DNA from: a virus
Length of the DNA: 64,000 bases
Reading direction: 5' to 3' (one strand)
Virus record (IMG/VR): IMGVR_UViG_3300021962_007571
Location: 19,526 to 83,525 of that record
The notes beneath the pieces were generated by a model, which saw nothing but the letters and a program-made list of their open reading frames with translations, did no database searches and had not been told where the DNA came from. Position 1 is the stretch's first letter, and each line of letters begins with the position of its first letter. The translations under genes were made by a program, and so were the position numbers. This document shows, in pieces, positions 5,088 through 30,516 of the stretch.

Positions 5088-7800
5088 AATTTATATATTC
5101 TTCCCATCCTTCTTCCGCCAACTCATACATATAATCGGGACTTAATCCTCTTTTATCCCAATACTTTAATTCTTGTTCTGAGATATCCAAAACATCTTCT
5201 TGTAGTCTATCTTGACCTGATGGGTCAAATGGTTTCCCGTTAATCAATTCACATTGTTCTTTGGTAAACAATCCACGTTTTTCAGGGTCTAAAACTAATA
5301 AGTTATCTCTAACCTCATCTTTAAACACAACTAATAAAGGTTCAATACGTTTATTAAACGTTGTAATAGCTCGTGGGACATTATACTCACCTGTTAAGTC
5401 AGGATTATCTTCTAACGCTTTACTGTCTAACATATAACAGTTTAATACTGTTTCTTCACCTTTCTTTTGTACGTCACCGTGAGATGCTCTAATTCCGTTA
5501 TTAACATAAAATATGACATCACCTAAGTTAATATTAAGTCCGTGTTTGATGGCTAATTCCATATGAGCCATTTTACTCATAGACCCACCCGACTTTGTTT
5601 TTTGAGTACTTCTAATTCTATAATCTTCTAAAGACAATTTAACTTTAGCTCTTTGGGCAATTTGTTTTAATGGAATCTTTTGGTCAAATATTTTCTGTAA
5701 GTATTCGTAATACCACTCAACAAATTCTTGACCTTTACCCTCTAACAATAGTTTAACTCCTTTATCCAAAAATGCCTCAATATATAAAGGTAGTTTTTTA
5801 GATTTAATAGTGTTACCCGTTAACTTAACTTTACCTTTGGCATCCATAACCGCATAGTTCTTACGAGCCAAGTTAATACAAGAAGGCCAAGTACCATCAG
5901 TATCTAACGCCATTTCACCTCTCATAAATAAATCGTTGAACTCCGCAACGTCCGCGTCATCGCCAGTATATTCCTTACCCTCTTTAACTTTCCAATTTAA
6001 ACCTTTACCGATATAACGTCTGTTTTCCCATCCTTCAGGTTTAGAGAAGTTCACACCGTCCGTATCCATTACAAGAGGGGTATATCCTCGTTTCATAAAG
6101 AACTTAATCATCATACGAAGATATTGTCTTCCTGTACAAGTAATCTGTTCACCCATATACATATCACCCCAAGCAAATACCTGTGGAGCTGATAACGCAC
6201 CGAACATCGAGTTAATAAAAATCTTAATTGGTAACTGTTTACGGTCATAAGATAACGACTTCTTAGGGTCGGTTTTCTCATATTGACCCGCCAAGTTTTT
6301 ATACAAGATACGAGTATCACGGAAGTACTTCAACATCGCTTTCATACCACCTGTAACGTCACATTCAGGAAATACATCGTGTACCAACTGAATAGAAGGG
6401 TATAGGGAACTAAAGTCAAGTTTCAATACGTTTCTTGAGTAACCTACTTTAAGTAGTCTTGATAAACCACCAACAAAGTCTGTTTTATCTTGTTTTTTAG
6501 GTATTGCTAACTTGAACTTATAAGACCAAGCTAACATTAACATTTTCCATAATGTTGCGGTACCCATAGTTGAAACTCTTTCGTAGGTTGTCGGAATCAT
6601 AGATGCCAACAAAAATGAACCCTGATTAAATTCATCATCGACAACAAGAGTTTCTTCCAAGTCATCGTCAAGATATCTTTCAACTACATTATCACCTGTT
6701 ACTTTAATGTAAGTACCAGGAAATCTAACATCTAAATTATCAAATTCAGGTTTGTCGGCTCTCTTATACTTACCGTTAGTAACGTTTAACCAATACTCTT
6801 CTTTTTTGGCATACATAGGACCAATCTCTAAATGGTCAATATATACACGGTCTTGAGCCTCAGCATCAATATATTGAGTAATGTATTTCAAACCTGCAGA
6901 CTTAATACTTGAATTAATTGCCTGAGCTCTACGTACAGAGTGAATAATATCAATTACGTTGTAACCCCAAATTGATACTTGATTGAATCGTTCTACTTCA
7001 TTCGCAAGTTTCAACATACTCTCTTTTTGAGATATGGTTCTTGCAGGATTCAATGAACGGCAAACCTTTTTAATGTCTAAATTAAGTGCCTTACATCTTT
7101 CAAATATCCAAAACCAGTCGAAGTTAGCTGAATTGTAACCACCAATAATACTTGGTTTTATTTCGTCAATAATGTTAAAAAACTGAACTAACCCCTGTCT
7201 TTCTTGTTCTTCAGTTGCACATTCGATTACCTTTTGATAACCTTTGTTAGTTTTTATTCCAATCATAAAGATACGACCGTCCTTAGGTTCAAGTGCGGTC
7301 GTCTCTAAGTCGAATACAAGTCGAGTAACATCATTGTACTCCTCATATCCTTTAAATAAACGTTTTTCTCTTTGTATTAAGTATTGTTCTACAGGAGGTA
7401 GAATCATAATTAAATCTTTCGCCCTTTCACTCCAAGGGTCTAAACCACCATCTCTAAAGAATTGGATTAGAGTACGGTAACCTTTTAAAGATTTAACCAT
7501 ATACTTAAGACCTTGTTCCATTCTATCATTACCTTTAGTTTCTAACTTTTCGATAACAATACCATATTTGGTCATATTTTCTTTTTGAGCGCCTTTAGAA
7601 TTTTGATAAAAGTTTAAACCTTTCAAATCTCCAACCCACGCAAATGCAATAAAACTGTCTTTTTGGATTACTTTTCCCTGACCAGGGATTTCTTTAATTT
7701 TGTAAATTGAATCTGACACATAATCAAATTCGACCGCCACGATAAATTCTTCGGGGTCATTACCTTCAAGGAAGGATTTAATTTCTTCTTGACTAATCAT
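5086..7800 (-). CDS. polB: Family B DNA polymerase
   Basis: Exonuclease FDLET and GYNSANFD; polymerase LDFSSLYPS, KIFINSMFG, MDTDG, KNYA. Confidence 0.95.
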   Translation of the reverse strand: MISQEEIKSFLEGNDPEEFIVAVEFDYVSDSIYKIKEIPGQGKVIQKDSFIAFAWVGDLKGLNFYQNSKGAQKENMTKYGIVIEKLETKGNDRMEQGLKYMVKSLKGYRTLIQFFRDGGLDPWSERAKDLIMILPPVEQYLIQREKRLFKGYEEYNDVTRLVFDLETTALEPKDGRIFMIGIKTNKGYQKVIECATEEQERQGLVQFFNIIDEIKPSIIGGYNSANFDWFWIFERCKALNLDIKKVCRSLNPARTISQKESMLKLANEVERFNQVSIWGYNVIDIIHSVRRAQAINSSIKSAGLKYITQYIDAEAQDRVYIDHLEIGPMYAKKEEYWLNVTNGKYKRADKPEFDNLDVRFPGTYIKVTGDNVVERYLDDDLEETLVVDDEFNQGSFLLASMIPTTYERVSTMGTATLWKMLMLAWSYKFKLAIPKKQDKTDFVGGLSRLLKVGYSRNVLKLDFSSLYPSIQLVHDVFPECDVTGGMKAMLKYFRDTRILYKNLAGQYEKTDPKKSLSYDRKQLPIKIFINSMFGALSAPQVFAWGDMYMGEQITCTGRQYLRMMIKFFMKRGYTPLVMDTDGVNFSKPEGWENRRYIGKGLNWKVKEGKEYTGDDADVAEFNDLFMRGEMALDTDGTWPSCINLARKNYAVMDAKGKVKLTGNTIKSKKLPLYIEAFLDKGVKLLLEGKGQEFVEWYYEYLQKIFDQKIPLKQIAQRAKVKLSLEDYRIRSTQKTKSGGSMSKMAHMELAIKHGLNINLGDVIFYVNNGIRASHGDVQKKGEETVLNCYMLDSKALEDNPDLTGEYNVPRAITTFNKRIEPLLVVFKDEVRDNLLVLDPEKRGLFTKEQCELINGKPFDPSGQDRLQEDVLDISEQELKYWDKRGLSPDYMYELAEEGWEEYIN

Positions 7801-7892: not shown

Positions 7893-8273
7893 TTAGCAAC
7901 AAGGATTATCTGAAATAAAACTATCTTGGATATTGACAAACAATCGTTCTCTGATTGGGACGATTAGGTCTCCTTGGTCATTTTTTAACATAAACTGACC
8001 TTCGTATCTACCGACCTTATTGGTGTCTTTCTTTTTGAATTGGTAGTAAATATAATATTCTGTAGGAGTATTTGGGTCTACAAAAGTTTTTGAGACAAAC
8101 CCTGCGGCTTTACCAGTTATCTTAGGGATACCTGTTTCAGTATCAATCATAGTGAAAATAATAGAAGAAGATTCTATCAAATCCATAAATTTATGATAGT
8201 CACTTCTACCATCTTTAACTACTTGCATTTTAAGAATAGGTAGGGTTGCGTTCTTTTTAATAAAAAATTCCAT
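7893..8273 (-). CDS. Ig-like virion protein (BppU N-terminal-like)
   Basis: FFIKKNATLP.L...YQF...DT...GRYEGQF pattern; late motif upstream. Confidence 0.55.
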   Translation of the reverse strand: MEFFIKKNATLPILKMQVVKDGRSDYHKFMDLIESSSIIFTMIDTETGIPKITGKAAGFVSKTFVDPNTPTEYYIYYQFKKKDTNKVGRYEGQFMLKNDQGDLIVPIRERLFVNIQDSFISDNPCC

Positions 8274-8338
8274 CAAACTTTTTATAATAAATACATTGTA
8301 ATTTAAAATAATGATATAACTATGCTTATTTTACTTCA

Positions 8339-9142
8339 TTACAACATAATATCAAAATATTCTCTCCAATCAGATTTAATTAAATGAAATAAATCTTTTT
8401 GTTTAGAATAACAGATATCAAATATCTTCTCATCACTACCAATATATCCATCATTAATTGACTCTTCTATTGTATTAACAACTAAGTCCAATAAATTATC
8501 TATTAAATGTGAAGGTAATAAAAATGCGGTTCCCTGTATATGTCTTATCTGTGATAAACTATGATATTCTTTATTTGGTATTGTAAAATCTTCATTGTGA
8601 CTAAAAAATGTGATTTTGTTAGGGTCCAAAGATTTAACTTTTAATATGTTTGGCCATTTTTTGTTTTTATAAAGATTAATATCATTTCTTAAACCTCCAG
8701 CATCTGCCCAAATAACAATATCATTATTAAAATAATTGTTGTCTATAGTGTCTTTAAGAAAAAAAACTTTGTTAAACATTATTATGTTGTATAAAGGTTG
8801 ACACATTTCGGGAACATCGGGGAAACTAACCTTAGATTTAAAATCTTCTGAAAACATTAGACCACTTAAAGAGTCGTAATATTTTTGATACATAGGTAAC
8901 TCAGATAGAGGTTTCTCAATAAAGATAGTTTTTTCAAGATTAGGGTCAAACTCTTTTCTATATTTAGTTAATTCGTCAACAAATTTAGATTCTGTGTATA
9001 CCACAATATTACAATCTAATGATAGTGTATTTCTCATCCACCAACCATAGGTGTGATAAGACATTCTAAAATTATTCCAATTTTCTCTACCAATATCATA
9101 TAGAGCCATTACTATAACAGGATTATTTATATCCATTCCCAA
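8339..9142 (-). CDS. HtrL/YibB-like putative glycosyltransferase
   Basis: ALYDIGR, Y....NK..FL......N.F.....W.DAG, G.DE/Q pattern. Confidence 0.7.
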   Translation of the reverse strand: MGMDINNPVIVMALYDIGRENWNNFRMSYHTYGWWMRNTLSLDCNIVVYTESKFVDELTKYRKEFDPNLEKTIFIEKPLSELPMYQKYYDSLSGLMFSEDFKSKVSFPDVPEMCQPLYNIIMFNKVFFLKDTIDNNYFNNDIVIWADAGGLRNDINLYKNKKWPNILKVKSLDPNKITFFSHNEDFTIPNKEYHSLSQIRHIQGTAFLLPSHLIDNLLDLVVNTIEESINDGYIGSDEKIFDICYSKQKDLFHLIKSDWREYFDIML

Positions 9143-9882
9143 TTAACTTTAATATTTTTATGTTGAATATCCACTTCGTTTACATCAAAATAATTTGAAG
9201 TGTTATCAGAGTTTATTAATGTACTTAATTTAAATCCGTACTTATTTAAAACTGTAGGGACAAATCCTTCAGAATATGCGTAATACCCGTTATTGTTAAG
9301 CTCAAGTAATTTTTTTAACGCCTTATTTGAAAATCTTGTTGTCGGGAAAAACGAACCAAACATTTCGTTAGTTTCTTCAGGTAGTACGTCTCCGTCACCA
9401 GGAAATCTATCAAACCAAAGACTTTTTGAGAAAGTTTTATTGTCAATAGTTGGCACATTTTGTTGTGAGATTACCCCGTCTTTTTTAAAACAAAAATATG
9501 ACATAAAATCAGAATCATCTTTGTCTGTTCCTAAGAAAAACTCTTCCCAATTTTTTATTTTAATATCATCATCAAAAAACCAATAAAAATCGTAATTAGG
9601 ATTTTTCACATAAAAGTATAACATCCTTAAATGAGCAAAAAACCAAATAATATTTCTATTACCATACGAGTTCCAATAATGATTTTTACTAACATCTATG
9701 TTAAAATTAAGATTTTCTCTAATTTCTTTTTCGGTATATTTAAATCCGACATCAAATGAAGAATCATTTGTAATATCTGACACCCAAATTAATCTTTTAT
9801 CTTCTTTTGGAAAATTATTCCAATTATCAACATAACTTGGGTACATATTAGGTGTTGTACAAACACAATTTATATTATTCAT
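9127..9882 (-). CDS. Putative GT-A fold glycosyltransferase
   Basis: YDFYWFFDDD (DxD), RFS..AL, SE.FVPT; cluster context. Confidence 0.6.
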   Translation of the reverse strand: MNNINCVCTTPNMYPSYVDNWNNFPKEDKRLIWVSDITNDSSFDVGFKYTEKEIRENLNFNIDVSKNHYWNSYGNRNIIWFFAHLRMLYFYVKNPNYDFYWFFDDDIKIKNWEEFFLGTDKDDSDFMSYFCFKKDGVISQQNVPTIDNKTFSKSLWFDRFPGDGDVLPEETNEMFGSFFPTTRFSNKALKKLLELNNNGYYAYSEGFVPTVLNKYGFKLSTLINSDNTSNYFDVNEVDIQHKNIKVNWEWI

Positions 9883-10693
9883 ATTCTTTAGTTAAAATTT
9901 CATTCCATTCAGGAATTCTATTAAATTGATGTACTATATCGTACTTTAAATTTTCGTGAGTAAAAACTTCATTACCGACTAACTGAGCAACTCCGCCATA
10001 TCTACCTATAAATCCGTTTTTAAAACCCCAACTTTCAAAAAATTGTGTTGGTCCGCCTAAAGCACAATGTAACGTCCACCCTTCAGTAACTTCAAATATT
10101 CTTAAATTATCAATTTTATTTTCAAATATCATAATAATTAAAGCCGCTTGGTCTTTAATGTTGTGGTTATTTAATCCGTTTTCACACATCAAAAACAGTT
10201 CATCGTACAATTTAATTAATGACTCTCTTTTACCTCCAATAACTCCTGAACAAATAATGTCTTGATTTAAACACTTACCAAAGTATTCGGGAAAAACCTT
10301 ATTTATTACGTCAGTATTCCAAGGTTCCTGTATTAATTTTAACCCTTCAGAACCTACAAATACGTCATAGTTTAAATCCATTTTAGTAAAAGGGTCTGAT
10401 TGGAATACAACATCAAAAACGTCAGTGATTAAGAATAAATCTATATCACTAGTTTTTAAAAATTCTAATGTTTTACCAAGTCTTTTATGATTAATATAAT
10501 AGGTATCGTCAATACTAACAGGTATTGATATGATACCAATTTCTTCACACATTTTAATTTCTTCTTCAGTTGAGTTGGCACATAATAGGATAATATCACC
10601 ATCCGAATATTTTTTAAAACTTTTTGACCATACTTTTATTTTATTAAAATTTAATTTAATATTATTTGATAATCCTAATAACGCTTTTTTCAT
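9875..10693 (-). CDS. Putative GT-A glycosyltransferase
   Basis: TDVFDVVFQSDPF, CSGVIGG, DQAAL, IVHQFNR. Confidence 0.7.
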   Translation of the reverse strand: MKKALLGLSNNIKLNFNKIKVWSKSFKKYSDGDIILLCANSTEEEIKMCEEIGIISIPVSIDDTYYINHKRLGKTLEFLKTSDIDLFLITDVFDVVFQSDPFTKMDLNYDVFVGSEGLKLIQEPWNTDVINKVFPEYFGKCLNQDIICSGVIGGKRESLIKLYDELFLMCENGLNNHNIKDQAALIIMIFENKIDNLRIFEVTEGWTLHCALGGPTQFFESWGFKNGFIGRYGGVAQLVGNEVFTHENLKYDIVHQFNRIPEWNEILTKEYE

Positions 10694-10700
10694 ATGTTTT

Positions 10701-11270
10701 TTAACAATTATTTAAAGATAAATTTAATTCTTCATTAAAGTTTAAAATTGTCGGCCAAAGATACTCAACACAGTAATTGGTTTGATTTATTATTTCAGTT
10801 TTAGACAAAGTTTCTTTTATTTTTTTATAATATTCTAAACTATTTTTTAATATTAATTTTTTAGATACTATACATTGGGCAGAACTAATAAATTTTATTG
10901 GTTGGTTATATGAAATATTATTTCTATTTGCATATTCTATTGTCTTTTCTAATTCATTACCGTCTCGAATATAAGTACAACCTAAAGGATAAAATTCGGT
11001 TTTAAAATCAAAACCATTAACTTTTTCAATAAACGACGGGCAATGGTCAAAAGGATAATCTTGAGAGAAACAAACATAGTCAGGTAAGTTTTCATAATTA
11101 TCTATCATATATGTTAGATACGCAATAGTGTCGAAACCAACATTAGGTAAATTATTTTCAAACTTACTATTATTTTCAGGATTTTTATTATAGACAATGT
11201 TAGGGTATTTTATATTACTTAACCATTCTAAATTTCTATTGTAATGACAAACAATTACTACCAAATCCAT
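10701..11270 (-). CDS. DUF3431-like (GT-related) protein
   Basis: HYN.NLEWL, LPNVG...AYL.Y.IDNY.NLPD...F.Q..PFDH, AQ.IVSK..I. Confidence 0.75.
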   Translation of the reverse strand: MDLVVIVCHYNRNLEWLSNIKYPNIVYNKNPENNSKFENNLPNVGFDTIAYLTYMIDNYENLPDYVCFSQDYPFDHCPSFIEKVNGFDFKTEFYPLGCTYIRDGNELEKTIEYANRNNISYNQPIKFISSAQCIVSKKLILKNSLEYYKKIKETLSKTEIINQTNYCVEYLWPTILNFNEELNLSLNNC

Positions 11271-11272
11271 TT

Positions 11273-12523
11273 TTATAATTTTCCTTCAATTTTATCACAC
11301 CATCCTTTAGATTCAGAATGAGGCCATACAACCCAATACGATGGTTTTTCTGCGGTTAAAAATTCTCTCCAAATTTTACAATAACCATCTTTATCATTCT
11401 TCAATCTATTGATTTCATTTTTATCGGCGTCTTTTCTATGTAAAGTTTCACCACCTTCTCTATGAAACGCAACCACCCAAAAATCGTAATCCGTTTCAGA
11501 TACTTGACTTAAACTAACATCAATACAATGTTTAAAAATTTGTGAAAAACTATTAATCCATTCTTCTTCATTTTCAAAATTATATGTGTTAGGAGGATAT
11601 TTTTTATCTAAAGTTTCTTGTTGTACTGCCCTTTTACCAAATAAAATACCCGCATATTTTTCATAGTCACGTAAAGTTCTTTCAGTACCAAAACCAAAAA
11701 TACCAAATTCTTCAGGGTCAAATACTTCACCATCCATACTAAATAATCTTCTATTTTTAGAATGTGAAAATTTATTCTTCTCTCCCCAAGTTTTATCATC
11801 ATCCCATTGTTTAGTTCTACCTTTACGAGTGTATTCGTGCCAACAAATAATTTTATGTGGGTGAAATAAATCATATCCGTGAGTATAAGCTCTTGCGGCA
11901 ATAGAAATTTCTTCACCGTGGAAATAAAATTCAGGGTCGTGTTGTACTTCTTTGGCAAACGAGCCTAAAGTAAATGCGAAATGTGCGGAATAGAACCTAC
12001 TCGGTACTGGTTCTTCTAAAGTATCCCAATTAGGGATTGTTTCAGGTAAAAAGAATATCGCGCCTTCAGGAATAAATCTATCAAAAGACATTCTCCAAGG
12101 AACCATAACTCTACCATTTGGGTCGTTCTCTGGGTCAAAAGAAGATACATAACTTGTTAGTAAAGGTTTTTTATAACCCTTTTCTTGTAGTTGTTTAATC
12201 ATATTAATAGACATCTCATCCCAATCTTGTTGAAATCTCATATGAGAATCTATTTGTAAAGTATACTCTTCTCCATCATATAACTGTTGAGTTAGATTTC
12301 TTGCCCAACAAACACCTTTAGACTCTTCATAAGGAATATTTAAAATTCTAAATCTATTATCATTTTCATACTCAGACAAATCATCAAACTTATCATTAGG
12401 GTGAAATTGTCTTGCAATTGAAAAAATTAAGTTCTCAGGATTTTTAGCCTTACTAATGGCATCCTTAATAGTTGGTATTAGTTGGGGGTCTCGATAAGAC
12501 GCAATTTGGATAAAAATTTTCAT
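11273..12523 (-). CDS. GT60-family polypeptide alpha-GlcNAc transferase (Skp1 Gnt1/TcOGNT-like)
   Basis: IFIQIASYRDP, GVCWAR, LQIDSHMRF..DWD, DP...F.GEEI...R.YTHGYD. Confidence 0.85.
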   Translation of the reverse strand: MKIFIQIASYRDPQLIPTIKDAISKAKNPENLIFSIARQFHPNDKFDDLSEYENDNRFRILNIPYEESKGVCWARNLTQQLYDGEEYTLQIDSHMRFQQDWDEMSINMIKQLQEKGYKKPLLTSYVSSFDPENDPNGRVMVPWRMSFDRFIPEGAIFFLPETIPNWDTLEEPVPSRFYSAHFAFTLGSFAKEVQHDPEFYFHGEEISIAARAYTHGYDLFHPHKIICWHEYTRKGRTKQWDDDKTWGEKNKFSHSKNRRLFSMDGEVFDPEEFGIFGFGTERTLRDYEKYAGILFGKRAVQQETLDKKYPPNTYNFENEEEWINSFSQIFKHCIDVSLSQVSETDYDFWVVAFHREGGETLHRKDADKNEINRLKNDKDGYCKIWREFLTAEKPSYWVVWPHSESKGWCDKIEGKL

Positions 12524-12576
12524 ATCATTATTTTAGATACTAAAATATAATAAACAAAGAGTGAATATAAATAAAA

Positions 12577-12601
12577 AATCCCCCAAGTTAGTTGGGGGAT
12601 T
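12577..12601 (-). terminator. Intrinsic terminator after the fibre-like gene
   Basis: AATCCCCCAA-gttag-TTGGGGGATT with A-run on the left. Confidence 0.75.
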
Positions 12602-12625
12602 GTCAAATATTGTGTGATGTTATTT

Positions 12626-13483
12626 TTAATATATTTTATTTAACACAAATATGTCAGAGTATATTGAATTTAAAGCACTATTACTACTAAATTCTACTGT
12701 AACATCTAACGTATTTGAAACCGTGGTATTAAATGTTGTGTTATTAACCGTATTAAAGGCAAAACCTTCAGGTGCCGCATTAGATTGCTTTGTGGTATGA
12801 AATACTCCAAGGGACACAATTTCTCCAACTCCAGCAACACCTGTGTTTCTAATTGTGAAATTTATTGAGAATTGCCATACGTCATTTACCGCACCATTCA
12901 TATTTTGAAGTCCACTATCAGCTAAAACAACTGAACCTGCTTTAACTCGTATTCTAATATCGTCGCCATTTCTTGATGATAACAAACCTCCAAAATCGGC
13001 TCTAAAACTATCTCCAATTTGGAATTGGTTAGGCCCTACAGTAAGGGTACCTACACCACCATTGATTATTGATGATTCTACAGTTGTGGCACTTACCACA
13101 ACACTGTTACCTGTTTGAGAAAATAAACCATATACCGTAGGGAATGGTGCTGGTGGAGCAGATGTTCCTGAAGAACCGCTAGTACCACTAGTTCCATCAG
13201 TACCTGAAGTACCACTAGTTCCATCAGTACCTGAAGTACCACTAGTTCCATCAGTACCTGAAGTACCACTAATACCATCTGTTCCAGAATTTCCTGAAGT
13301 CCCACTAGTACCATTATTACCTGAAATACCACTAGTACCTGAAGTCCCATTTTGAGTTACCGCAGAAAAAGGTATTGACTCAGTTTGTCCTGAAGCTACA
13401 GTATTGTAGTTTACGATAACCATCAAAGAATCTGAATATCCTGTGGTCGCTTTTGGTAATAATGATATTGGTAAATCCGCCAT
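12626..13483 (-). CDS. Collagen-like (Gly-Thr-Ser) fibre protein with a C-terminal beta-sandwich head
   Basis: ~21 consecutive G-X-Y triplets; N-terminal ISLLP anchor motif. Confidence 0.75.
   Translation of the reverse strand: MADLPISLLPKATTGYSDSLMVIVNYNTVASGQTESIPFSAVTQNGTSGTSGISGNNGTSGTSGNSGTDGISGTSGTDGTSGTSGTDGTSGTSGTDGTSGTSGSSGTSAPPAPFPTVYGLFSQTGNSVVVSATTVESSIINGGVGTLTVGPNQFQIGDSFRADFGGLLSSRNGDDIRIRVKAGSVVLADSGLQNMNGAVNDVWQFSINFTIRNTGVAGVGEIVSLGVFHTTKQSNAAPEGFAFNTVNNTTFNTTVSNTLDVTVEFSSNSALNSIYSDIFVLNKIY
13161..13350 (-). repeat. Gly-X-Y coding repeat including three perfect 27-bp units (GTSGTSGTD)
   Basis: AGTACCACTAGTTCCATCAGTACCTGA x3 from 13181. Confidence 0.9.
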
Positions 13484-13491
13484 TGTATTTT

Positions 13492-13749
13492 TTATTTTTT
13501 ATTTAATTCCATATAATATTGTAAACCTGACTTGTTATTAGGTACAATATTATCATCATTTAATTCGTTACTACCTAAATAAACAATCTCTTTTTCGATT
13601 GTGTAAAGGTCTAAGAATTTAGTTGTTTTTTTAATTTCTGTTTTAAAATCGGCAACTTTGATGTTGTCGTTTAAATCAAGCGAAGTAACGTAATTTTGTA
13701 TGTTACCCTCACCTTTTAGTTTTACTGTTATTTGTGTTTGATATCTCAT
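13492..13749 (-). CDS. Small ubiquitin-like (beta-grasp) protein, no C-terminal GG
   Basis: QITVK / LDLNDNIKVADFKTEI / IVYLGSNELNDD align by eye with ubiquitin QIFVK / LEVEPSDTIENVKAKI / LIFAGKQLEDG. Confidence 0.55.
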   Translation of the reverse strand: MRYQTQITVKLKGEGNIQNYVTSLDLNDNIKVADFKTEIKKTTKFLDLYTIEKEIVYLGSNELNDDNIVPNNKSGLQYYMELNKK

Positions 13750-13750
13750 A

Positions 13751-15802
13751 TTAGTCCCACCATATGTAATCGTTTATCATATCCCAACTGGTATATTCAT
13801 TGTCTATTGTAATTTGTTTTACTTCATCATTAGAAATCATAGTTAATAGATATTGACCATCAATATTATTTTTTACAACATATCTATCTTTAACTGCGTA
13901 AACATCGTTCCAATAATCATCTTCAATAAGAGTACTATTTAATAGTGCCCCGTTAAAATTGTATAGATTAACTCTTAAATTATCGGAGTTAGTAAGGTAA
14001 ACATATAAGAAGTTATCTTTACCAATTCTTAAATCTCTTTCACCAAAATCTTCAGGTAAAGTAAATTGATTACTTATTGAATCTTTAGTTAAAACTCTAG
14101 CGGTTGAATTTTGAGAATTATATAAAAGAATATTTGAATTTGTAGAATAGTATTCTTGAGTGTAATAATTAGTTGATGTATTAATATCATTATACACTTC
14201 TGTTTGTGTATACCCTGTTACTTGGTTATTAACATAGTAACCATCCTCGTAATTAGTCATATAAAAAGTTCCATAACTTGTTGAAATATTATACCAACTA
14301 GGTATTGGAAATCCTAATGAATCGACTAATTCACCGTTTAAGAATAATCTATGGTTAGCGTATGAGTCACCATCGGTAGTGTAACTATAATTAAAATAAT
14401 CACCAAACCAATTAGTATTCCATCCGTTTATATCATTATAACTTACATTTGTTGATGTGATATTAACACCATTTTCAGTTATTGAGAAAACCGATGAATT
14501 AGTGTCACCTGTCGAACATATTGTATAAAAAGTCTTATTTCCCCAAGAATAAGGATAAAAAGTTTTATCATTTGAACCGCTATTTTGGAAAGTATAGGTT
14601 GTAAGTTCGGTTTGATTTTCTAATCTATAAATAATATCTAAATAACTAACTTCATATCCACCACCTGTGTAATAATTCCCCGTACCGTTATATAAGATAA
14701 TAAAAATACCTCCAGAAGGAACATCGTCAGGATAAAATTTTGTTTCGTACTGAGTTGTTATATTAGTATAATTATTACCTCTTACGTGGGTTGTTGATGA
14801 AACGTAATCAGTAACACCGTTATAATTATTAATTAAATAATCAATATTATCATCATCACTATTCCACATAGTAATGTTAAATGATTTATCACCATACCAT
14901 TGAAAATACCACTGATTGTATGTGTTTGGTATTATTAATAAATCAGACTTTACTGTAAGTGACGTGTCGTAAATTTTTAGAGAACTAAGTGTATTATTAC
15001 TTATCAAATAAGATAATTCGTAAAAATAATTTGACGAATAATACGTACCATAATATCTTTGTTCAATAGTATAGTCCCAACTATTAATTAATTCGGTAGA
15101 ACCATTATTATTGACTTTATATGAATATGCCGTGTTATTGTCATTATTATAAATTACGAAAAAGAATGAACCGTCTTGACAAGTTCCGTCCCAATCCCAT
15201 TGAATATCTAAACTTTCATAATTTGAGTCAAATGTATATTGATAAACTGATTTACCGTTAAACCAATAAAATAACCCTCCATCAGGGTCTTGGAAATAAA
15301 CAATTCTACCATCTATTATACCAGAATTAGAGTCAAAGGTAGTTGCACTGAATTGTTCAACAACATTCCCATTAACATCAATAAACAATGATAAACGTTC
15401 AGTATAACCATCATTACGAAAATCTAATAAACAACCACTTTCAGATAATGGATACCAGTTGTTGATATTCCAATATGTCGTATCAACACCTAAATCTATA
15501 ATTTCAGCGGTAAAGTCGTTAAAGTTTAAGAACCCTAAACTAAAAGTTGTTTGACCTGAAACATTACCTAATTGCATATAATTTTGGTTTTGTCCGTAAG
15601 GCTCTGAAACTGTTAATGTATAAACATAATCGTATGTTGTTGATGAAATAGTATACTCACCATAAGGTAATTCACTATAATAATTGAAAGGTATTGTCTT
15701 AATACCTAAGTCAATTGGTGTTCCACCTGTCATTGGTTGGAACGTAACATTTGCGGTCTGTCCCGATAAATTATTACTTGTTATTCTAACTCCTATAGCC
15801 AT
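13751..15802 (-). CDS. Tyr/Asn/Thr-rich beta-structured virion protein (possible beta-propeller)
   Basis: Composition, fibre-operon context, late motif upstream. Confidence 0.55.
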   Translation of the reverse strand: MAIGVRITSNNLSGQTANVTFQPMTGGTPIDLGIKTIPFNYYSELPYGEYTISSTTYDYVYTLTVSEPYGQNQNYMQLGNVSGQTTFSLGFLNFNDFTAEIIDLGVDTTYWNINNWYPLSESGCLLDFRNDGYTERLSLFIDVNGNVVEQFSATTFDSNSGIIDGRIVYFQDPDGGLFYWFNGKSVYQYTFDSNYESLDIQWDWDGTCQDGSFFFVIYNNDNNTAYSYKVNNNGSTELINSWDYTIEQRYYGTYYSSNYFYELSYLISNNTLSSLKIYDTSLTVKSDLLIIPNTYNQWYFQWYGDKSFNITMWNSDDDNIDYLINNYNGVTDYVSSTTHVRGNNYTNITTQYETKFYPDDVPSGGIFIILYNGTGNYYTGGGYEVSYLDIIYRLENQTELTTYTFQNSGSNDKTFYPYSWGNKTFYTICSTGDTNSSVFSITENGVNITSTNVSYNDINGWNTNWFGDYFNYSYTTDGDSYANHRLFLNGELVDSLGFPIPSWYNISTSYGTFYMTNYEDGYYVNNQVTGYTQTEVYNDINTSTNYYTQEYYSTNSNILLYNSQNSTARVLTKDSISNQFTLPEDFGERDLRIGKDNFLYVYLTNSDNLRVNLYNFNGALLNSTLIEDDYWNDVYAVKDRYVVKNNIDGQYLLTMISNDEVKQITIDNEYTSWDMINDYIWWD

Positions 15803-15843
15803 TTTATTTTTTTATTTATAAATATCAATTGATATTATTTAGT

Positions 15844-18800
15844 TTATTGTATTAACCATTTATTTTTAAGATATAACGTTAACGTTGATAATTCTGTTGG
15901 TGATAACGCCCTACTATAAGCTAAAACGTCAAATAAAAATCCGTTTAAATAGAACTGAGCAACTCCCGCGGGAGCCCCTGTGTAGGAAACACCTAAGAAC
16001 ATATATGTAATTAATGATGAAGTTAATGTCCCTACATTTGAAGAAAAAGTTAATGATTGTTGAACCCCATTAATATAGAATTTAAGTCTATCAATATTTG
16101 TTAATCCTCCACCATCAAACACTAATGTTAATATACGAGCATCATTATTTACAATCCCACCGCTAGCAAAACCATTAGCAATGGCCACATTATATGTACC
16201 TCCACTTTGTCTAATGTAAGACGCGTTTAATCCTGTATTACCATCTTCACCTCCTTGGATATATTGTTGTGTGGTGCCAGTATTTAATGTTTTAGCAACT
16301 AATACTAAAGTCTGACCTGATTTGGATGATAAATCAGTTAATGGGTTAACACTTAAACCGTCCGAGGTACCATTAAAGTAAACCCCACCTAAACCATTTT
16401 GTATATTACTCCACCATTCAGGTGCAGGTACAGGTCCTCCGCCAATAGGGTTTGCGTTATGTGCGGAAGACGATGAGTCAGTCCATTGAGTAAATGTACT
16501 TCCACTTGTTGGTACTGGATTAAAATATGATGATAAATCACCTTGATAATATATTTCTAGTGTAGGGTCAGATGGAGGTGGTGGAGGTACTGGAGTCGGA
16601 GTAGGGGTTGGAGTCGGAGTAGGGGTTGGAGTTGATGTAGGTGTTGGTGTTGGAGGTATTGGGGTAGGTGTTGGTATTGGCGTTTCAGTAGATGTAGGTA
16701 TTGGCGTTTCAGTAGATGTTGGTGTAGGTATTGGCGTTTCAGTAGATGTTGGTGTAGGTATTGGCGTTTCAGTAGATGTAGGTATTGGCGTTTCAGTAGA
16801 TGTAGGTATTGGCGTTTCAGTAGATGTTGGTGTAGGTATTGGCGTTTCAGTAGATGTAGGTATTGGCGTTTCAGTAGATGTTGGTGTAGGTGTTGGCCCT
16901 ACTAATAACTCATACCAAATACAAACAGGTTCTCCCTCAATAAAATCAACAGGTGAAGGTTGGATTAATACTAATGGGGACGTTCCAGGATTAATACCTC
17001 CGTTTATTAAACCACCGAATTCATTTGAGAATGAAAATGGGTTACCTTGATAAATTGCGGTATTTTCATTTTGACTAAAATAGATTAAATAATTGTTTGT
17101 TAATAATTGTATATAATAATCATATAAATTATTCCCCTCATTATCTATAAAATTAAAATCAACTCCGTTTATATCAAAAGTATTTGGATTTAATATTCCT
17201 TGACCAGTCCCAAGATTTGAAAATTCAGGAAATATTATATTACCCTCTGTTGGGTAAAAATAAGGTAATGTTATTAAATTAAAACATCCGCCAGTTACTA
17301 CTAAAAATTCAGGTATAAAATCATTGTTAGGTATTATTTCAGAACCTAATCCATCGTTTGGTATGTGATTGTCGTAGAAATCATTAAATGGAATATAACC
17401 TCCATTTAAATCATTATTAGGAATATACCCACCATTTAAATCGTTATTAGGAATATACCCACCATTTAAATCGTTATTAGGAATATATTCTACATTTAAA
17501 TCATTATCTAATATATTGTCACTATCAATATCATTATTTGGTATGATTAAATAATTGATATCGTTTGGAGGTGTAGAGTTACATTGTATGATTAGCTTAT
17601 CACCATTTTCTTGTAAAACATAAAAACCATTTTCTTGTAATAAAAAACAATTTTCAATAGGAGTTGGTGTTGCAGTAGGTGTCGGAGTTGGTGTCGGAGT
17701 TGGTGTTATCGTAGGTGTAGGTGTCGGAGTTGGTGTTGGAGTTGGTATTATCGTAGTAGTAGTTGTAGTAAATGGATTGGTAGTAGTAGTTGTAGTAAAT
17801 GGATTGGTAGTAGTAGTTGTAGTAAATGGATTGGTAGTCGTAGTTGTGGTAAATGGATTGGTAGTCGTAGTTGTAGTAAATGGATTAGTGGTTGTAGTTG
17901 TGGTAAATGGATTAGTGGTTGTGGTCGTAATGATAACATCACAATCAGGACAATCAGGATTAAATAAATCAAAAGTATCTTTTAATAATAAGAAATTGTG
18001 TTTAACCTCATCGGCAGATAAAGGTTCAGTATACATTCTAAATTGCGTTATACCACCATCAAAAGAACCTGCAAAATTTTGTTCAATTAATATGTGTGTT
18101 GTTAGCGCAGATAATGATGTACCACTTAATATATTATTAGGAAAACACTCAGGGTCTTGTTGATATGTTAGTCCTGTTAATGTTTCAGGACAACCTGTGA
18201 ATGTTAAGTTATTATGTAATCCTTGTGTACCACCACCCCAAGATATATTGTAAGGAACACCAACCTGTCTTTCTTTTTCCGTATCAAGACCTCTTGGAAT
18301 AATTTCTTCAATATTTTCAAAAATGTAAAATACTCGTCCATTAACATAAACTTTTATTCTACCTTGTCTATATTCTTTTTCAATTAACCATCTTTCATTA
18401 AGTTTAACCACCTCTATTTTTTCAGGAGGGGTAGAACCACTACTAGTTACTGGCGGCTCAATTAACTTAACTGATTCATTAAGTAATGAAAACAAATAAG
18501 GGTTAGTTGATATTAAACCTAGACCCCCTTTATACCAAAGGTCACAAGTGTCTAACCAAGTATACCTTTCCCATACCAAATCTAACTGTACCCAATGTTC
18601 TTGACTTAAAAACGCAGGATTTATTTGTGCACAAAAATCGTAAATTCCTTTAGGTGTACATAAATTCTCGACAGTATATCCTGTTTGATAAGTTATTCCT
18701 GTCGTTGAACAAGTTCCTGTTGTAACACAATCACCAGTAAAACGTAAAATTCTAACACCTATTTGAGGGTTATGTGGGTCACCACAAAGTTTAAACGCCA

Positions 18801-19821
18801 AGGCATTTGACATTGAATCAAATAAAGGGTCTTTATCAGGTTCAATTTTTGTATCAATAGTTGCGGCACACCCACAATTACAATTTAGACCGTGAGAAAC
18901 TATTTCATTTGTTGGTTGGTATACTTCAATACAAGACGAATTAGTAACTCCTGTATCAGAACAAGCACAAGTTTTTAAACACGTTAAAGTTTCAGTAACT
19001 CTAGTGTAACCTGTATCAGATACAGGACTTCCACTTGCGTGGTGATAAAATTTATTTTCAGCTCTTGTACCTAAATAAAAGAAAATATCTTTGTTATTGG
19101 GATAAAAGTTATTTAGTGTCGTTTGACCTATTGGTGGATTATATTCATCAACAAATCTTGGTTTTAATAACAACTCAACGGTCCAACCTTTATTAACCCT
19201 TTCAGGATATAAAGTGTAGTCATACCCAAATAACTTATAAAATCCTTGGTAAAACCCTCCGTATAACTCGTGATAAACTCCGACCTTAGGGTCTTGTTTT
19301 GAAACTATATTATATGATATGTCTAAAGGTAATCCTGAAAATCTAATATTTGGAGATTGGGTATATCCTGTAACTTGGTGTAATTTTAATCTTCTGTCAA
19401 AATATAATCGTTCAAACTTTAAAAAGTCTGAGAACAATCCCTCAGTTACCGTAATTGTTTGTCCTGTCATTTCAGACACCAAACCATTATCAATACCCGT
19501 CAAACCAATATCACATATAGTTTTTGCGGTATAACAATTTAAATCAATATTATTAGGGTTATAATAATTTGATGAAACTAAGTTGTTATACTGATTATAT
19601 TGGTTAAATGTCAAAACAAATAACTCACTATTATCAGGATTATTTAAATCAAAACTAAATGGTAACCTATTTCCGTCATTTTCGGCAATTAGGTTTGGGG
19701 AAAAGATTACCTCCTCCTTATAGTCCCTCTCATCGGATGCCAAAGAAAAATCTTGTATTTCCGACTTATTTAGGAGATACCACTTATTAAAATTATATTG
19801 GTTTATATTTTGATATGCCAT
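15844..19821 (-). CDS. Large virion protein: Cys-rich LamG-like N-region, mucin-like Thr/Pro stalks, C-terminal LamG/ConA-like domain
   Basis: FDGGI..FRMY.EPLS..EV; (T6NPF)n, (PT)n, (TSTETPIP)n; C-terminal F.NG....YSRALS..E. Confidence 0.75.
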   Translation of the reverse strand: MAYQNINQYNFNKWYLLNKSEIQDFSLASDERDYKEEVIFSPNLIAENDGNRLPFSFDLNNPDNSELFVLTFNQYNQYNNLVSSNYYNPNNIDLNCYTAKTICDIGLTGIDNGLVSEMTGQTITVTEGLFSDFLKFERLYFDRRLKLHQVTGYTQSPNIRFSGLPLDISYNIVSKQDPKVGVYHELYGGFYQGFYKLFGYDYTLYPERVNKGWTVELLLKPRFVDEYNPPIGQTTLNNFYPNNKDIFFYLGTRAENKFYHHASGSPVSDTGYTRVTETLTCLKTCACSDTGVTNSSCIEVYQPTNEIVSHGLNCNCGCAATIDTKIEPDKDPLFDSMSNALAFKLCGDPHNPQIGVRILRFTGDCVTTGTCSTTGITYQTGYTVENLCTPKGIYDFCAQINPAFLSQEHWVQLDLVWERYTWLDTCDLWYKGGLGLISTNPYLFSLLNESVKLIEPPVTSSGSTPPEKIEVVKLNERWLIEKEYRQGRIKVYVNGRVFYIFENIEEIIPRGLDTEKERQVGVPYNISWGGGTQGLHNNLTFTGCPETLTGLTYQQDPECFPNNILSGTSLSALTTHILIEQNFAGSFDGGITQFRMYTEPLSADEVKHNFLLLKDTFDLFNPDCPDCDVIITTTTTNPFTTTTTTNPFTTTTTTNPFTTTTTTNPFTTTTTTNPFTTTTTTNPFTTTTTTIIPTPTPTPTPTPTITPTPTPTPTPTATPTPIENCFLLQENGFYVLQENGDKLIIQCNSTPPNDINYLIIPNNDIDSDNILDNDLNVEYIPNNDLNGGYIPNNDLNGGYIPNNDLNGGYIPFNDFYDNHIPNDGLGSEIIPNNDFIPEFLVVTGGCFNLITLPYFYPTEGNIIFPEFSNLGTGQGILNPNTFDINGVDFNFIDNEGNNLYDYYIQLLTNNYLIYFSQNENTAIYQGNPFSFSNEFGGLINGGINPGTSPLVLIQPSPVDFIEGEPVCIWYELLVGPTPTPTSTETPIPTSTETPIPTPTSTETPIPTSTETPIPTSTETPIPTPTSTETPIPTPTSTETPIPTSTETPIPTPTPIPPTPTPTSTPTPTPTPTPTPTPVPPPPPSDPTLEIYYQGDLSSYFNPVPTSGSTFTQWTDSSSSAHNANPIGGGPVPAPEWWSNIQNGLGGVYFNGTSDGLSVNPLTDLSSKSGQTLVLVAKTLNTGTTQQYIQGGEDGNTGLNASYIRQSGGTYNVAIANGFASGGIVNNDARILTLVFDGGGLTNIDRLKFYINGVQQSLTFSSNVGTLTSSLITYMFLGVSYTGAPAGVAQFYLNGFLFDVLAYSRALSPTELSTLTLYLKNKWLIQ
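16575..16897 (-). repeat. Coding tandem repeat (PT)TSTETPIP and PT runs
   Basis: GGTATTGGCGTTTCAGTAGATGT recurs about 8 times. Confidence 0.9.
17330..17545 (-). repeat. Coding 10-aa repeat (Y/I)IPNNDLNGG
   Basis: 30-bp unit CCATTTAAATC(G/A)TTATTAGGAATATA with degenerate flanking copies. Confidence 0.85.
17660..17930 (-). repeat. Coding repeats (TTTTTTNPF)x6 followed by (PT)n
   Basis: 27-bp unit GTAAATGGATT(G/A)GT(A/G)GT... Confidence 0.9.
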
Positions 19822-23689: not shown

Positions 23690-23690
23690 T

Positions 23691-24392: not shown

Positions 24393-24393
24393 T

Positions 24394-24957: not shown

Positions 24958-24959
24958 TT

Positions 24960-25520: not shown

Positions 25521-25522
25521 AT

Positions 25523-26227: not shown

Positions 26228-26230
26228 TTT

Positions 26231-27739: not shown

Positions 27740-27819
27740 AATGAGAAATAAATTAACGAGTATTTAATCCTCTATTTATATCTCAATTAAAAACATTACA
27801 ATTATATAAAAAAACAAAT

Positions 27820-28557: not shown

Positions 28558-28585
28558 TAATACTCTTATTAGAAAAAACAAATTT

Positions 28586-29188: not shown

Positions 29189-29457
29189 TGTTTAAAATAA
29201 TGAATGAACACTATTTTTTAGATTTGGACGAAATAGATAATTTCATTCAGATTAAATCAAACCCAACTACGGGGGAAACAAGTGATAATCATATCAGTAT
29301 TGTAAAATACGAAACAATTAAATTAATGTTAGAAGTATTAATGGATGGTAATGAAGAAGTTGATGAAGCCTTAGGACAAAAGGGTTCAGGACTTTCAATA
29401 CCATTTAAATTGGCCTTTAACACACTATTAAGTAAAAAACTATTAAAATCATTTTAA
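29176..29457 (+). CDS. Hypothetical protein
   Basis: Operon continuation. Confidence 0.55.
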   Translation: MDTMMFKIMNEHYFLDLDEIDNFIQIKSNPTTGETSDNHISIVKYETIKLMLEVLMDGNEEVDEALGQKGSGLSIPFKLAFNTLLSKKLLKSF

Positions 29458-29459
29458 TT

Positions 29460-30515: not shown

Positions 30516-30516
30516 T

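What the first reader, a model, noticed from the sequence alone, without database searches (positions are those of the whole stretch)
8339..19821. Candidate phage-encoded mucin-type O-glycosylation system: GT60 plus four GT-like genes next to Thr-run and collagen-like virion proteins
Seen: five co-oriented GT-like genes (GT60, DUF3431-like, two GT-A, HtrL-like) lie directly downstream of virion-like genes rich in hydroxyl acceptors: (TTTTTTNPF)x6, (PT)n, (TSTETPIP)n and a Pro-free (GTS)n collagen. Known: GT60 enzymes add alpha-GlcNAc to protein hydroxyls, including Dictyostelium Skp1 hydroxyproline and the Thr-run mucins of Trypanosoma cruzi, whose repeats resemble T6NPF. Inference: GT60 primes the Thr/Ser stalks and the neighbours extend the glycan, giving glycosylated, stiffened or shielded virion fibres. 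A terminator at 12577-12601 separates the two blocks, but a TATTTAT late motif (12567-12573) precedes the GT60 gene.
Basis: partly seen in the sequence, partly recalled or inferred. Interest (0 to 1): 0.85.

Follow-up and report, generated by a model that had tools for sequence, protein, structure and literature searches.

The report
Phage mucin-type protein glycosylation gene cluster
An uncultured giant phage of lakes and estuaries carries a eukaryote-type enzyme that starts mucin-like sugar chains, flanked by swappable sugar-adding genes and by fibre-like proteins with threonine, proline and serine repeats, so it probably sugar-coats its own fibres; this is inferred from comparative genomics and no glycan has been measured.

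Summary
On the minus strand of a roughly 300-kb T4-like jumbo phage fragment, a tight five-gene operon lies downstream of a 1325-aa protein with T6NPF, PT and TSTETPIP repeats and a proline-free (GTS)n collagen-like protein. The operon is GT60/PF11397 (E 1.9e-69), DUF3431, two unassigned DxD proteins and HtrL.

New evidence:
- GT60 is as conserved as the DNA polymerase and holds a fixed position in 80 related contigs.
- The genes behind it form a mosaic cassette of GT2, GT7, GT10, GT25, GT32, GT34 and sugar methyltransferase genes.
- The cassette is flanked on both sides by modular proteins. Each has a conserved N-terminal module followed by Thr/Pro linkers. One module folds like a BppU-type baseplate anchor.
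- The tail sheath carries a Thr-run insert.
- Three GT60 lineages sharing 37% identity or less sit next to PT-run genes.
- Contigs picked only for (PT)6 carry GT60 in 11 of 68 cases, against 1 of 78 controls.
- Nine large phages without GT60 have no PT runs.

Best reading (about 0.6): cytoplasmic, GT60-initiated O-glycosylation of Thr/Ser linkers in phage fibre proteins, extended by a strain-variable cassette. There is no biochemical proof, and virion location of the 1325-aa protein is unshown. This scan had already noted this same stretch from another window of this genome; I found no note of it on other DNA.

The parts
15844..19821 (-). 1325-aa modular protein. It has a conserved 627-aa N-terminal module, then T6NPF x6 (17753-17913), PT runs (17660-17746 and 16591-16655), IPNNDLNGGY repeats (17378-17538), TSTETPIP repeats (16667-16897) and a C-terminal LamG_3-like domain. 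It is a candidate glycan acceptor.
   Evidence: The N-terminal module is conserved in 26 loci and the C-terminal part is variable. The fold prediction failed.
13751..15802 (-). 683-aa protein rich in Asn, Tyr and Thr, of unknown fold, with no family match. It is co-oriented and preceded by a TATTTAT motif.
13492..13749 (-). 85-aa small protein between the fibre-like genes. Its function is unknown.
12626..13483 (-). 285-aa protein with 21 proline-free G-T-S triplets and a 170-aa C-terminal domain. It is a candidate glycan acceptor.
   Evidence: All 18 distinct collagen-like genes of the clade are G-[ST]-S and almost free of proline.
12577..12601 (-). Intrinsic-terminator-like hairpin between the collagen-like gene and GT60.
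12567..12573 (-). TATTTAT promoter-like motif ahead of GT60.
11273..12523 (-). GT60-family (PF11397) glycosyltransferase, 416 aa and soluble. D92-S93-H94 and the WHEY histidine are invariant. It has an extra Trp-rich C-terminal domain of about 120 aa. It is the proposed initiating polypeptide alpha-GlcNAc transferase.
10701..11270 (-). 189-aa DUF3431-family protein, the second gene of the operon. A glycosyltransferase role is not established.
9875..10693 (-). 272-aa protein with no Pfam family. It has an invariant TDVFDV (DxD-like) motif and a weak PHROG glycosyltransferase hit. It is a probable glycosyltransferase.
9127..9882 (-). 251-aa protein with no family and a FFDDD motif. An embedding search points to relatives in giant viruses. 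It is a possible glycosyltransferase.
8339..9142 (-). 267-aa HtrL/YibB-family protein, the last gene of the operon. A longer 557-aa HtrL-like gene holds this position in 67 relatives.
7893..8276 (-). 127-aa Ig-like domain resembling BppU-type baseplate or neck anchor domains. In at least 25 relatives the orthologue continues after ...PCC into Cys-rich and Thr-run or PT linkers, followed by variable distal domains.

Best explanation
This is a phage-encoded, cytoplasmic, mucin-type protein O-glycosylation module.

Proposed mechanism:
1. The soluble GT60 enzyme transfers a first sugar onto Thr/Ser hydroxyls of unstructured Thr-run, PT and G-[ST]-S segments. By family precedent this is alpha-GlcNAc from UDP-GlcNAc.
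2. The acceptors are the phage's own modular fibre or decoration proteins: the 1325-aa protein, the collagen-like protein, p127-type anchor proteins in relatives, and probably the Thr-run insert of the tail sheath.
3. The genes transcribed behind GT60 extend that sugar. This cassette is swapped between related phages, so each strain would make a different glycan.
4. The likely effect is stiff, protease-resistant, strain-specific glycan-clad stalks.

Shown: gene content, family assignments, synteny, repeat composition and the statistical association.

Inferred: donor sugar, acceptor identity, chain extension, virion location and physiological effect.
For: **Family assignment.** PF11397 matches at 235 bits. 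DSH and a downstream His are invariant over 13 sequences down to 50% identity. GT60 enzymes are the polypeptide alpha-GlcNAc transferases that start mucin-type O-glycans in protists (PMC8724618, PMC6939170).

**Location of the proteins.** No GT or repeat protein has a transmembrane segment.

**Operon structure.** The five genes overlap or are separated by 7 nt or less.

**Synteny.** In 80 relatives GT60 (70-91% identity) sits between the 1325-aa gene family and p127-PolB.

**Repeat distribution around GT60.** S/T/P-rich ORFs make up 31% of co-oriented upstream ORFs. They make up 0 of 325 cassette ORFs and 0 of 174 opposite-strand ORFs. The 7% found downstream are p127 orthologues or the next gene.

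**Cassette content.** Cassette families include GT2, GT7C, GT10, GT25, GT32, GT34 and a sugar O-methyltransferase.

**Virion link.**
- The p127 model (pLDDT 88.8) best matches phage baseplate anchor domains: 80alpha Z 8.4, NF5 Z 8.2, TP901-1 BppU Z 8.2. It also matches BppU-named viral models.
- The tail sheath (phrog_23, E 1.5e-55) carries a Thr-run insert.

**Independent lineages.**
- In the L123 type, a protein with three PT linkers ends 17 nt before GT60.
- In L145, L172, L199 and L208, GT60 lies 0.7-3 kb from PT runs on the same strand.

**Genome-level association.**
- All nine GT60-bearing records of the window and XacN1 lineages that were scanned have (PT)3 runs, 6-31 each, on both strands together, counting G008 from the L123 lineage as well.
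- Nine GT60-less large phages have none.
- Contigs picked by (PT)6 carry PF11397 in 11 of 68 cases against 1 of 78 collagen-pattern controls, p 0.0014.

**Assembly check.** Independent metagenomes hold exact contigs across the cassette.
Against: - No glycan, glycopeptide or enzyme activity has been observed, and the phage is uncultured.
- The 1325-aa and 683-aa proteins have no homologue of known location. The N-terminal fold prediction failed.
- Z scores near 8 for p127 are at the level the tool calls common for models without a clear match.
- XacN1-type loci show no close adjacency.
- A complete 61-kb phage with a distant GT60 has no PT runs. Loci L012 and L044 have no S/T/P-rich ORF.
- The association counts are not corrected for shared ancestry.
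- Several cassette families (GT25, HtrL, and GT9 in XacN1) are best known from lipopolysaccharide synthesis.
- Four of the five window genes are not proven glycosyltransferases.
Confidence: 0.6

Rival explanations
1. The enzymes glycosylate proteins other than their neighbours: host proteins, as a takeover or regulatory modification like Skp1 glycosylation, or other phage proteins. The repeat proteins lie nearby only because both sit in one hypervariable island.
For: GT60 is as conserved as PolB while its neighbours vary. XacN1-type GT60 is not adjacent to repeat proteins. The region lies among replication genes.
Against: Adjacency to PT-run genes recurs in three GT60 lineages with different flanking genes. 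PT runs are absent from nine GT60-less large phages. No prolyl-hydroxylase-type gene was found for a Skp1-like route.
Confidence: 0.15
2. The cluster remodels a host envelope glycan (lipopolysaccharide core, capsule or exopolysaccharide) during infection, for superinfection exclusion or to stop progeny sticking to debris.
For: HtrL/YibB, GT25 and GT9 are lipopolysaccharide-associated families. Large GT sets in T4-like cyanophages have been read as cell-surface modification (PMC12801897).
Against: Every characterised GT60 acts on polypeptides (PMC8724618). None of the GTs has a membrane segment. The Pfam scans of the cluster and of the ORFs tested around it showed no flippase, polymerase or lipid-carrier priming enzyme. 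This reading does not explain the link with PT and Thr repeats.
Confidence: 0.12
3. The enzymes glycosylate phage DNA bases to evade restriction, as in T-even phages and in phages with glycan-hypermodified DNA.
For: The cluster lies between PolB and an exonuclease, dUTPase and methyltransferase block. In XacN1 the gene is next to DNA polymerase and RNase H. Variable GT sets would suit an arms race with restriction systems.
Against: The complete relative G001 has one thymidylate-synthase-family gene (314 bits) that keeps the Asn of dUMP-specific enzymes (PFNIAS), so there is no dCMP-hydroxymethylase signature. No Tet/JBP hit was found, although the control genomes did not ring for that search either. 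GT60 has no known nucleic-acid acceptor. The PT-repeat association is unexplained.
Confidence: 0.07

Closest known systems
Protist mucin-type O-GlcNAc initiation by CAZy GT60 polypeptide alpha-GlcNAc transferases (Trypanosoma cruzi, Dictyostelium) and the cytoplasmic Gnt1 of the Skp1 pathway
   Same: Same Pfam family (PF11397) with a DxH motif. The candidate acceptors are dense Thr runs beside Pro. The T. cruzi mucin repeat T8KP2 is cited from my own knowledge, not from a tool. The enzyme is soluble like cytoplasmic Gnt1. In both cases further GTs extend the first sugar.
   Different: The host is a virus of bacteria. The enzyme has no Golgi anchor. It has an extra Trp-rich C-terminal domain of about 120 aa outside the Pfam model. 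No prolyl hydroxylase was found. The extension enzymes are a swappable cassette. Activity is untested.
Mycobacteriophage virion glycosylation (Freeman et al. 2023, as described in PMC12619734 and PMC11256854)
   Same: Phage-encoded glycosyltransferases act in the cytoplasm on the phage's own structural proteins.
   Different: There the acceptors are the C-termini of the capsid and tail-tube subunits, and the phages are small siphoviruses with one or two GTs. Here the major capsid protein has no S/T/P-rich segment. The candidates are fibre or anchor proteins and the sheath. The initiating enzyme is GT60, and up to nine variable GT genes follow it.
Giant-virus fibril and collagen glycosylation (Mimivirus, chloroviruses). 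This comparison comes from my own knowledge.
   Same: A virus-encoded glycosylation machinery works independently of the host secretory pathway. There are collagen-like and Thr/Pro-rich surface proteins. p251-like proteins have look-alikes in Nucleocytoviricota (a lead only).
   Different: Those viruses infect eukaryotes, belong to a different virus realm and use different initiating enzymes.
GT-rich T4-like aquatic phages: the cyanomyovirus S-SCSM2R with 13 GTs (PMC12801897) and the freshwater 'moraphages' with four core GT groups (PMC12619734)
   Same: They are large aquatic myovirus-like phages with many GT genes of unknown target. The complete relative G001 is 294 kb and has DnaK, as described for moraphages.
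   Different: Those papers do not report GT60 or a link to Thr/Pro-repeat proteins. P-SSM2 has no GT60 and no (PT)3 run. I could not test whether this phage is a moraphage.

Membership tests
CAZy GT60 / Pfam PF11397 (polypeptide alpha-GlcNAc transferase) | Sequence match to the family model above its curated threshold | tested here: met
   E 1.9e-69 and 235 bits against a cut-off of 21. Two stretches cover profile positions 2-43 and 95-348.
CAZy GT60 / Pfam PF11397 (polypeptide alpha-GlcNAc transferase) | GT-A type metal-binding DxH motif plus a downstream histidine | tested here: met
   D92, S93, H94 and H229 (WHEY) are invariant in 13 sequences down to 50% identity. Assigning them catalytic roles rests on general knowledge of the GT27 and GT60 families, not on a structure.
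CAZy GT60 / Pfam PF11397 (polypeptide alpha-GlcNAc transferase) | UDP-GlcNAc donor and a retaining alpha linkage | not testable with these tools
   This needs an enzyme assay.
CAZy GT60 / Pfam PF11397 (polypeptide alpha-GlcNAc transferase) | Polypeptide Thr/Ser (or Hyp) acceptor | tested here: inconclusive
   Only comparative support is available: adjacency in three lineages and 11/68 against 1/78. No PF13640 hydroxylase was found.
Mycobacteriophage-type virion glycosylation | Acceptors are C-terminal extensions of the major capsid and tail-tube subunits | tested here: not met
   The major capsid protein (44147-45979) has a maximum S/T/P fraction of 0.33. The candidate acceptors are other proteins.
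Mycobacteriophage-type virion glycosylation | Glycans detected on virions | not testable with these tools
   The phage is uncultured.
Collagen triple-helix repeat (PF01391) | Uninterrupted G-X-Y periodicity | tested here: met
   E 7.6e-9 and 21 triplets.
Collagen triple-helix repeat (PF01391) | Pro or charged residues in X and Y that stabilise a triple helix | tested here: not met
   No proline. X is Thr in 16 of 21 triplets and Y is Ser in 16 of 21. Formation of a triple helix is therefore uncertain.
BppU N-terminal baseplate or neck anchor domain (for p127) | Ig-like fold superposable on BppU-type anchor domains | tested here: inconclusive
   Z 8.4, 8.2 and 8.2 to 6v8i_BJ, 9m8o_P and 4v96_AA, with 103-110 residues aligned. 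BFVD hits named BppU have E about 1e-4. There is no Pfam hit.
HtrL_YibB (PF09612) | Match above the curated threshold | tested here: met
   94 bits against a cut-off of 24.1. It is below the NCBIfam equivalog cut-offs. The family's biochemical function is unknown.
T-even type DNA glucosylation | A dCMP hydroxymethylase that supplies the hydroxymethyl acceptor | tested here: not met
   The only thymidylate-synthase-family gene of the complete relative G001 keeps Asn in PFNIAS, the dUMP type. The window's own genome is only 26% complete.

The most novel reading that the evidence does not exclude
A very abundant group of aquatic jumbo phages uses a eukaryote-type GT60 enzyme to start mucin-like O-glycans on Thr/Pro/Ser stalks of their own fibres. 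They diversify the glycan by shuffling a cassette of extension enzymes. This would be a phage 'glycan serotype' locus analogous to bacterial O-antigen loci. It would also be the first functional GT60 system outside eukaryotes.
Probability: 0.35. Interest if true: 0.85.

Novelty: new variant of a known kind. Interest (0 to 1): 0.77.

Why it matters
Protein glycosylation of phage particles is known experimentally only from mycobacteriophages. The many glycosyltransferases of large aquatic phages have no assigned target.

This locus links a well-defined initiating enzyme family (GT60) to a recognisable class of acceptor sequences. That link gives a directly testable hypothesis for thousands of metagenomic genes: more than 7,000 90%-identity clusters of close homologues.

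If it is right, three things follow. It would show mucin-type O-glycosylation in a bacterial virus. It would explain proline-free G-[ST]-S 'collagens' and Thr-run stalks. It would reveal a hypervariable glycan cassette that may govern host recognition, protease resistance or particle stickiness in natural waters.

Tried and rejected
- **Near-identical DNA in cultured phages:** none found.
- **tblastn of the 1325-aa and 683-aa proteins against phage records:** no match.
- **AlphaFold2 of the 1325-aa N-terminal module with a 19-sequence alignment:** pLDDT 29, unusable. Its profile found nothing in PDB sequences. Pfam gave only faint LamG_3 tails.
- **PDB sequence searches:** single sequences or profiles of GT60, p272 and p251 found nothing meaningful. 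No solved GT60 relative could be used.
- **Local hhalign between cassette families and the four unassigned window genes:** no significant links. The alignments were shallow, so this is inconclusive.
- **Homologue searches for p272 and p251:** 408 and 368 clusters respectively, none with a Pfam domain.
- **NCBIfam:** added nothing.
- **Tet/JBP search:** empty, but the controls did not ring either, so it is uninformative.
- **T6 DNA pattern:** absent from XacN1 and G001. Thr runs as such are therefore not universal and PT runs are the commoner form.
- **Metatranscriptome contigs (run X20):** they lie on PolB, the collagen gene, p683 and p1325. None lies on 9.5-11 kb. Contigs cannot show expression levels and DNA carry-over is possible, so I draw no conclusion.
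- **Hydroxyproline route:** rejected for lack of a PF13640 gene.
Full report
**What the window is.** The window is bases 19526-83525 of an 83.5-kb IMG/VR viral contig that CheckV rates 26% complete, which implies a genome near 300 kb. GC content is about 30%. It encodes a T4-type major capsid protein, portal and large terminase, a family-B DNA polymerase and a helicase. Just upstream of the window lie a tail sheath and a baseplate hub. The nearest cultured relatives by capsid protein are only 28-43% identical. A complete syntenic relative, G001, is 293,850 bp and carries DnaK. That fits the published description of freshwater 'moraphages' (PMC12619734), but I could not test identity with them. 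Near-identical DNA occurs in estuary, plankton and lake metagenomes from several studies. Independent runs hold exact contigs across the cassette and the GT60-collagen junction, so the arrangement is not an assembly artefact.

**The observation.** Transcription runs from 19821 down to 5086. The gene order is:
- the 1325-aa repeat protein
- a 683-aa protein
- an 85-aa protein
- the 285-aa proline-free (GTS)n protein
- a terminator-like hairpin and a TATTTAT motif
- five tightly packed genes, with overlaps of 16 and 8 nt and gaps of 7 and 2 nt
- a 62-nt gap, a 127-aa gene (p127) and PolB

Pfam assigns GT60 (PF11397, 235 bits), DUF3431 and HtrL_YibB. The two genes between them have no family. One has a weak PHROG glycosyltransferase hit and an invariant TDVFDV motif. 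The other has only a FFDDD motif and an embedding lead. None of these proteins has a membrane segment. TATTTAT is a genuine upstream motif. It stands within 60 nt upstream of 23 of 78 genes against 1.5 expected, and 33 of its 57 genomic copies lie in the 3.9% of DNA that is intergenic. It precedes sheath and baseplate genes, the repeat-protein genes, GT60 and p127. It also precedes PolB, PhoH and SOD, so it cannot be called a late signal.

**Relatives: a fixed initiator and a mosaic cassette.** GT60 has 335 related IMG/VR loci and more than 7,000 90%-identity clusters in metagenomes. In the best 80 loci it is 70-91% identical, about as conserved as PolB. It always lies between the conserved N-terminal module of the 1325-aa protein family and p127-PolB. 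The stretch between GT60 and p127 holds zero to ten ORFs drawn from 65 sequence clusters. Representatives of these clusters match the following families:
- HtrL-like, a 557-aa form found in 67 loci
- GT25
- GT2
- GT34
- GT10 fucosyltransferase
- GT7 galactosyltransferase
- GT32
- GT11 (weak match)
- a rhamnosyl-type sugar O-methyltransferase

The window's own four-gene version recurs in only four loci. This is the pattern expected of one conserved priming enzyme followed by interchangeable chain-extending enzymes.

**Acceptor candidates on both sides.** ORFs with a 60-residue window of at least 70% Ser, Thr and Pro are distributed as follows:

| Position relative to GT60 | S/T/P-rich ORFs |
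|---|---|
| Co-oriented, upstream | 31% of 268 |
| Cassette | 0 of 325 |
| Opposite strand, upstream | 0 of 174 |
| Downstream | 7% |

The downstream cases are all p127 orthologues or the next gene. p127 is a conserved 125-aa domain. In at least 25 relatives it continues after '...PCC' into Cys-rich Thr runs (TTTTTTYNP, ITTTTTTIEP) or PT repeats, and then into variable distal domains of up to 784 aa. Its AlphaFold model (pLDDT 88.8) best matches phage baseplate or neck anchor domains: 80alpha Z 8.4, NF5 Z 8.2, TP901-1 BppU Z 8.2 and 7.6. It also matches viral models named BppU, minor tail or neck passage structure. The Z values are marginal by the tool's own guidance, but the top matches are consistent. 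The 1325-aa protein has the same architecture: a conserved 627-aa N-terminal module followed by variable linkers and domains.

The collagen-like genes of the clade are all G-[ST]-S and almost free of proline, with up to 440 triplets in one ORF. Three chemically different repeat types therefore share one property, a high density of hydroxyl groups. A bona fide virion protein, the 1114-aa tail sheath (phrog_23, E 1.5e-55), carries a 40-aa Thr-run insert.

**Tests beyond the clade.** XacN1 and RAS14 jumbo phages carry GT60 at 44-48% identity. It sits near DNA polymerase, a carbamoyltransferase and a GT9 gene, with no repeat protein within 9 kb. Only about 5 of 18 XacN1-type metagenomic loci have such a protein within 10 kb.

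At genome level the picture is different. Counts of (PT)3-coding runs, with the reversed pattern as control (0-2 hits per strand), are:

| Record | GT60 | (PT)3 runs, both strands |
|---|---|---|
| XacN1 | yes | 31 |
| RAS14 | yes | 11 |
| G009 | yes | 11 |
| G010 | yes | 17 |
| G000 | yes | 13 |
| G001 | yes | 8 |
| G002 | yes | 6 |

Nine large phages without GT60, 2.6 Mb in all, have none. They are LR756508, Mel-JY01, Flavobacterium immuto, avDM4, P-SSM2, phiKZ, RSL1, G and RaK2.

A third lineage (L121 and L123, 37% identical to XacN1's enzyme) has a 402-aa protein with three (PT)6-8 linkers that ends 17 nt before GT60 on the same strand. A LamG-like fibre-type gene lies behind it, and the flanking genes are otherwise different.

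In a reverse test, 68 viral contigs chosen only because they contain a (PT)6-coding pattern carry PF11397 in 11 cases. Of 78 contigs chosen by a (G-P-x)5 pattern, 1 carries it. Fisher p is 0.0014, and the rates are 3.8 against 0.38 per Mb. In six PT-chosen loci GT60 lies in the same locus of 15 kb or less and on the same strand as the PT run. The distance is 0.7-5 kb in five of them and about 12 kb in L154. These include three L123-type loci and one type that is only 31% identical. None of these counts is corrected for shared ancestry.

Exceptions exist. A complete 61-kb phage with a distant GT60 has no PT run. Loci L012 and L044 have no S/T/P-rich ORF.

**Rivals.**
- *DNA glycosylation* is suggested by the replication-gene neighbourhood. 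However, the complete relative's only thymidylate-synthase-family gene is of the dUMP type. GT60 has no known nucleic-acid acceptor.
- *Host-envelope remodelling* is suggested by the LPS-associated families. However, all the enzymes are soluble, no lipid-carrier machinery was seen, and the repeat association is left unexplained.
- *A different protein target* cannot be excluded and is my main rival.
- *The Skp1-type hydroxyproline route* lacks a hydroxylase gene.

**Verdict.** I put about 0.6 on GT60-initiated O-glycosylation of Thr/Ser-rich linkers of the phage's own fibre or decoration proteins, with a strain-variable extension cassette.

Compared with known systems, it works like protist mucin-type O-GlcNAc initiation (PMC8724618). 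It serves a purpose like mycobacteriophage virion glycosylation, but it differs from both in host, acceptors and genetic organisation. The full-text searches I ran found no description of GT60 function in phages, only one passing listing in a metagenome survey. I rate it a new variant of a known kind, of high interest because it is abundant and directly testable.

Noticed in passing
window 22472-31320 (+): There is a second set of GT genes. It comprises a phrog_7162 GT, a GT2, a double GT2, a GT1-like gene and another GT2, plus a methyltransferase, interleaved with an exonuclease, dUTPase and PhoH. Unlike the variable cassette, these are conserved in the complete relative G001 at 47-66% identity. 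They may build a common glycan core or act on another substrate.
   Followed up: partly
G000:C1:13864-17208 (-), i.e. L085, 2.3 kb before the window start: The 1114-aa tail sheath (phrog_23, E 1.5e-55) has a 40-aa Thr-run insert (PKTTTTTTTSAPITTTSTTQNPCNTTTTTIPVSTTTTTIP). The G001 orthologue has a Ser/Thr-rich stretch at a different position.
   Followed up: partly
whole contig, e.g. window 12567-12573, 15813-15819 region, 8290 region: TATTTAT, often as GTATTTATA, is a strongly enriched promoter-like motif. It stands 10-60 nt upstream of 23 of 78 genes, and 33 of its 57 copies lie in 3.9% of the DNA. It precedes both structural and replication genes.
   Followed up: partly
window 11273-11620 (-), residues ~300-416 of GT60: A C-terminal domain of about 120 aa lies outside the Pfam GT60 model. 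Its tryptophans are invariant (W322, W349, W385, W400, W408; motif YWVVWPHSESKGW). It is conserved in XacN1-type and L123-type enzymes. It is a possible acceptor-binding or glycan-binding module, by analogy with the ricin domain of GalNAc transferases.
   Followed up: no
L012:13156-14220, L058:17159-18262: In some relatives the p127 anchor domain is fused to a distal domain with a papain-like motif (GDQGDTPQCVGYAWAH). That suggests an anchor that displays an enzyme.
   Followed up: no
L026:16659-21242, L036:16654-21242 and others: These are giant proline-free G-[ST]-S repeat ORFs of 400-440 triplets that run off the locus end, downstream of p127. Read depth over the window's GTS repeat reaches 1000x in estuary metagenomes, so such repeats are very common there.
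   Followed up: partly
window 17378-17538 (-); L067:17279-17914: The IPNNDLNGGY repeat (30-nt unit x4.3) of the 1325-aa protein also occurs in the C-terminal extension of a p127 orthologue. Modules are therefore exchanged between the two flanking protein families.
   Followed up: no
window 9127-9882 (-): By a protein-language-model search, the closest embedding look-alikes of the 251-aa protein are clusters dominated by Nucleocytoviricota, one of them named a glycosyltransferase family protein. This is a lead only.
   Followed up: no
L083 (XacN1 219791-223508): In XacN1 and RAS14 the GT60 gene is followed directly by a 765-aa carbamoyltransferase (NodU/CmcH type). That hints at a carbamoylated sugar in that lineage.
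   Followed up: no
window 5189-7419, 13218-15739, 17902-18171: Contigs of a lake metatranscriptome (run X20) match PolB exactly. They match the collagen-like, 683-aa and 1325-aa genes with some differences. Whether this is RNA or carried-over DNA cannot be told.
   Followed up: partly
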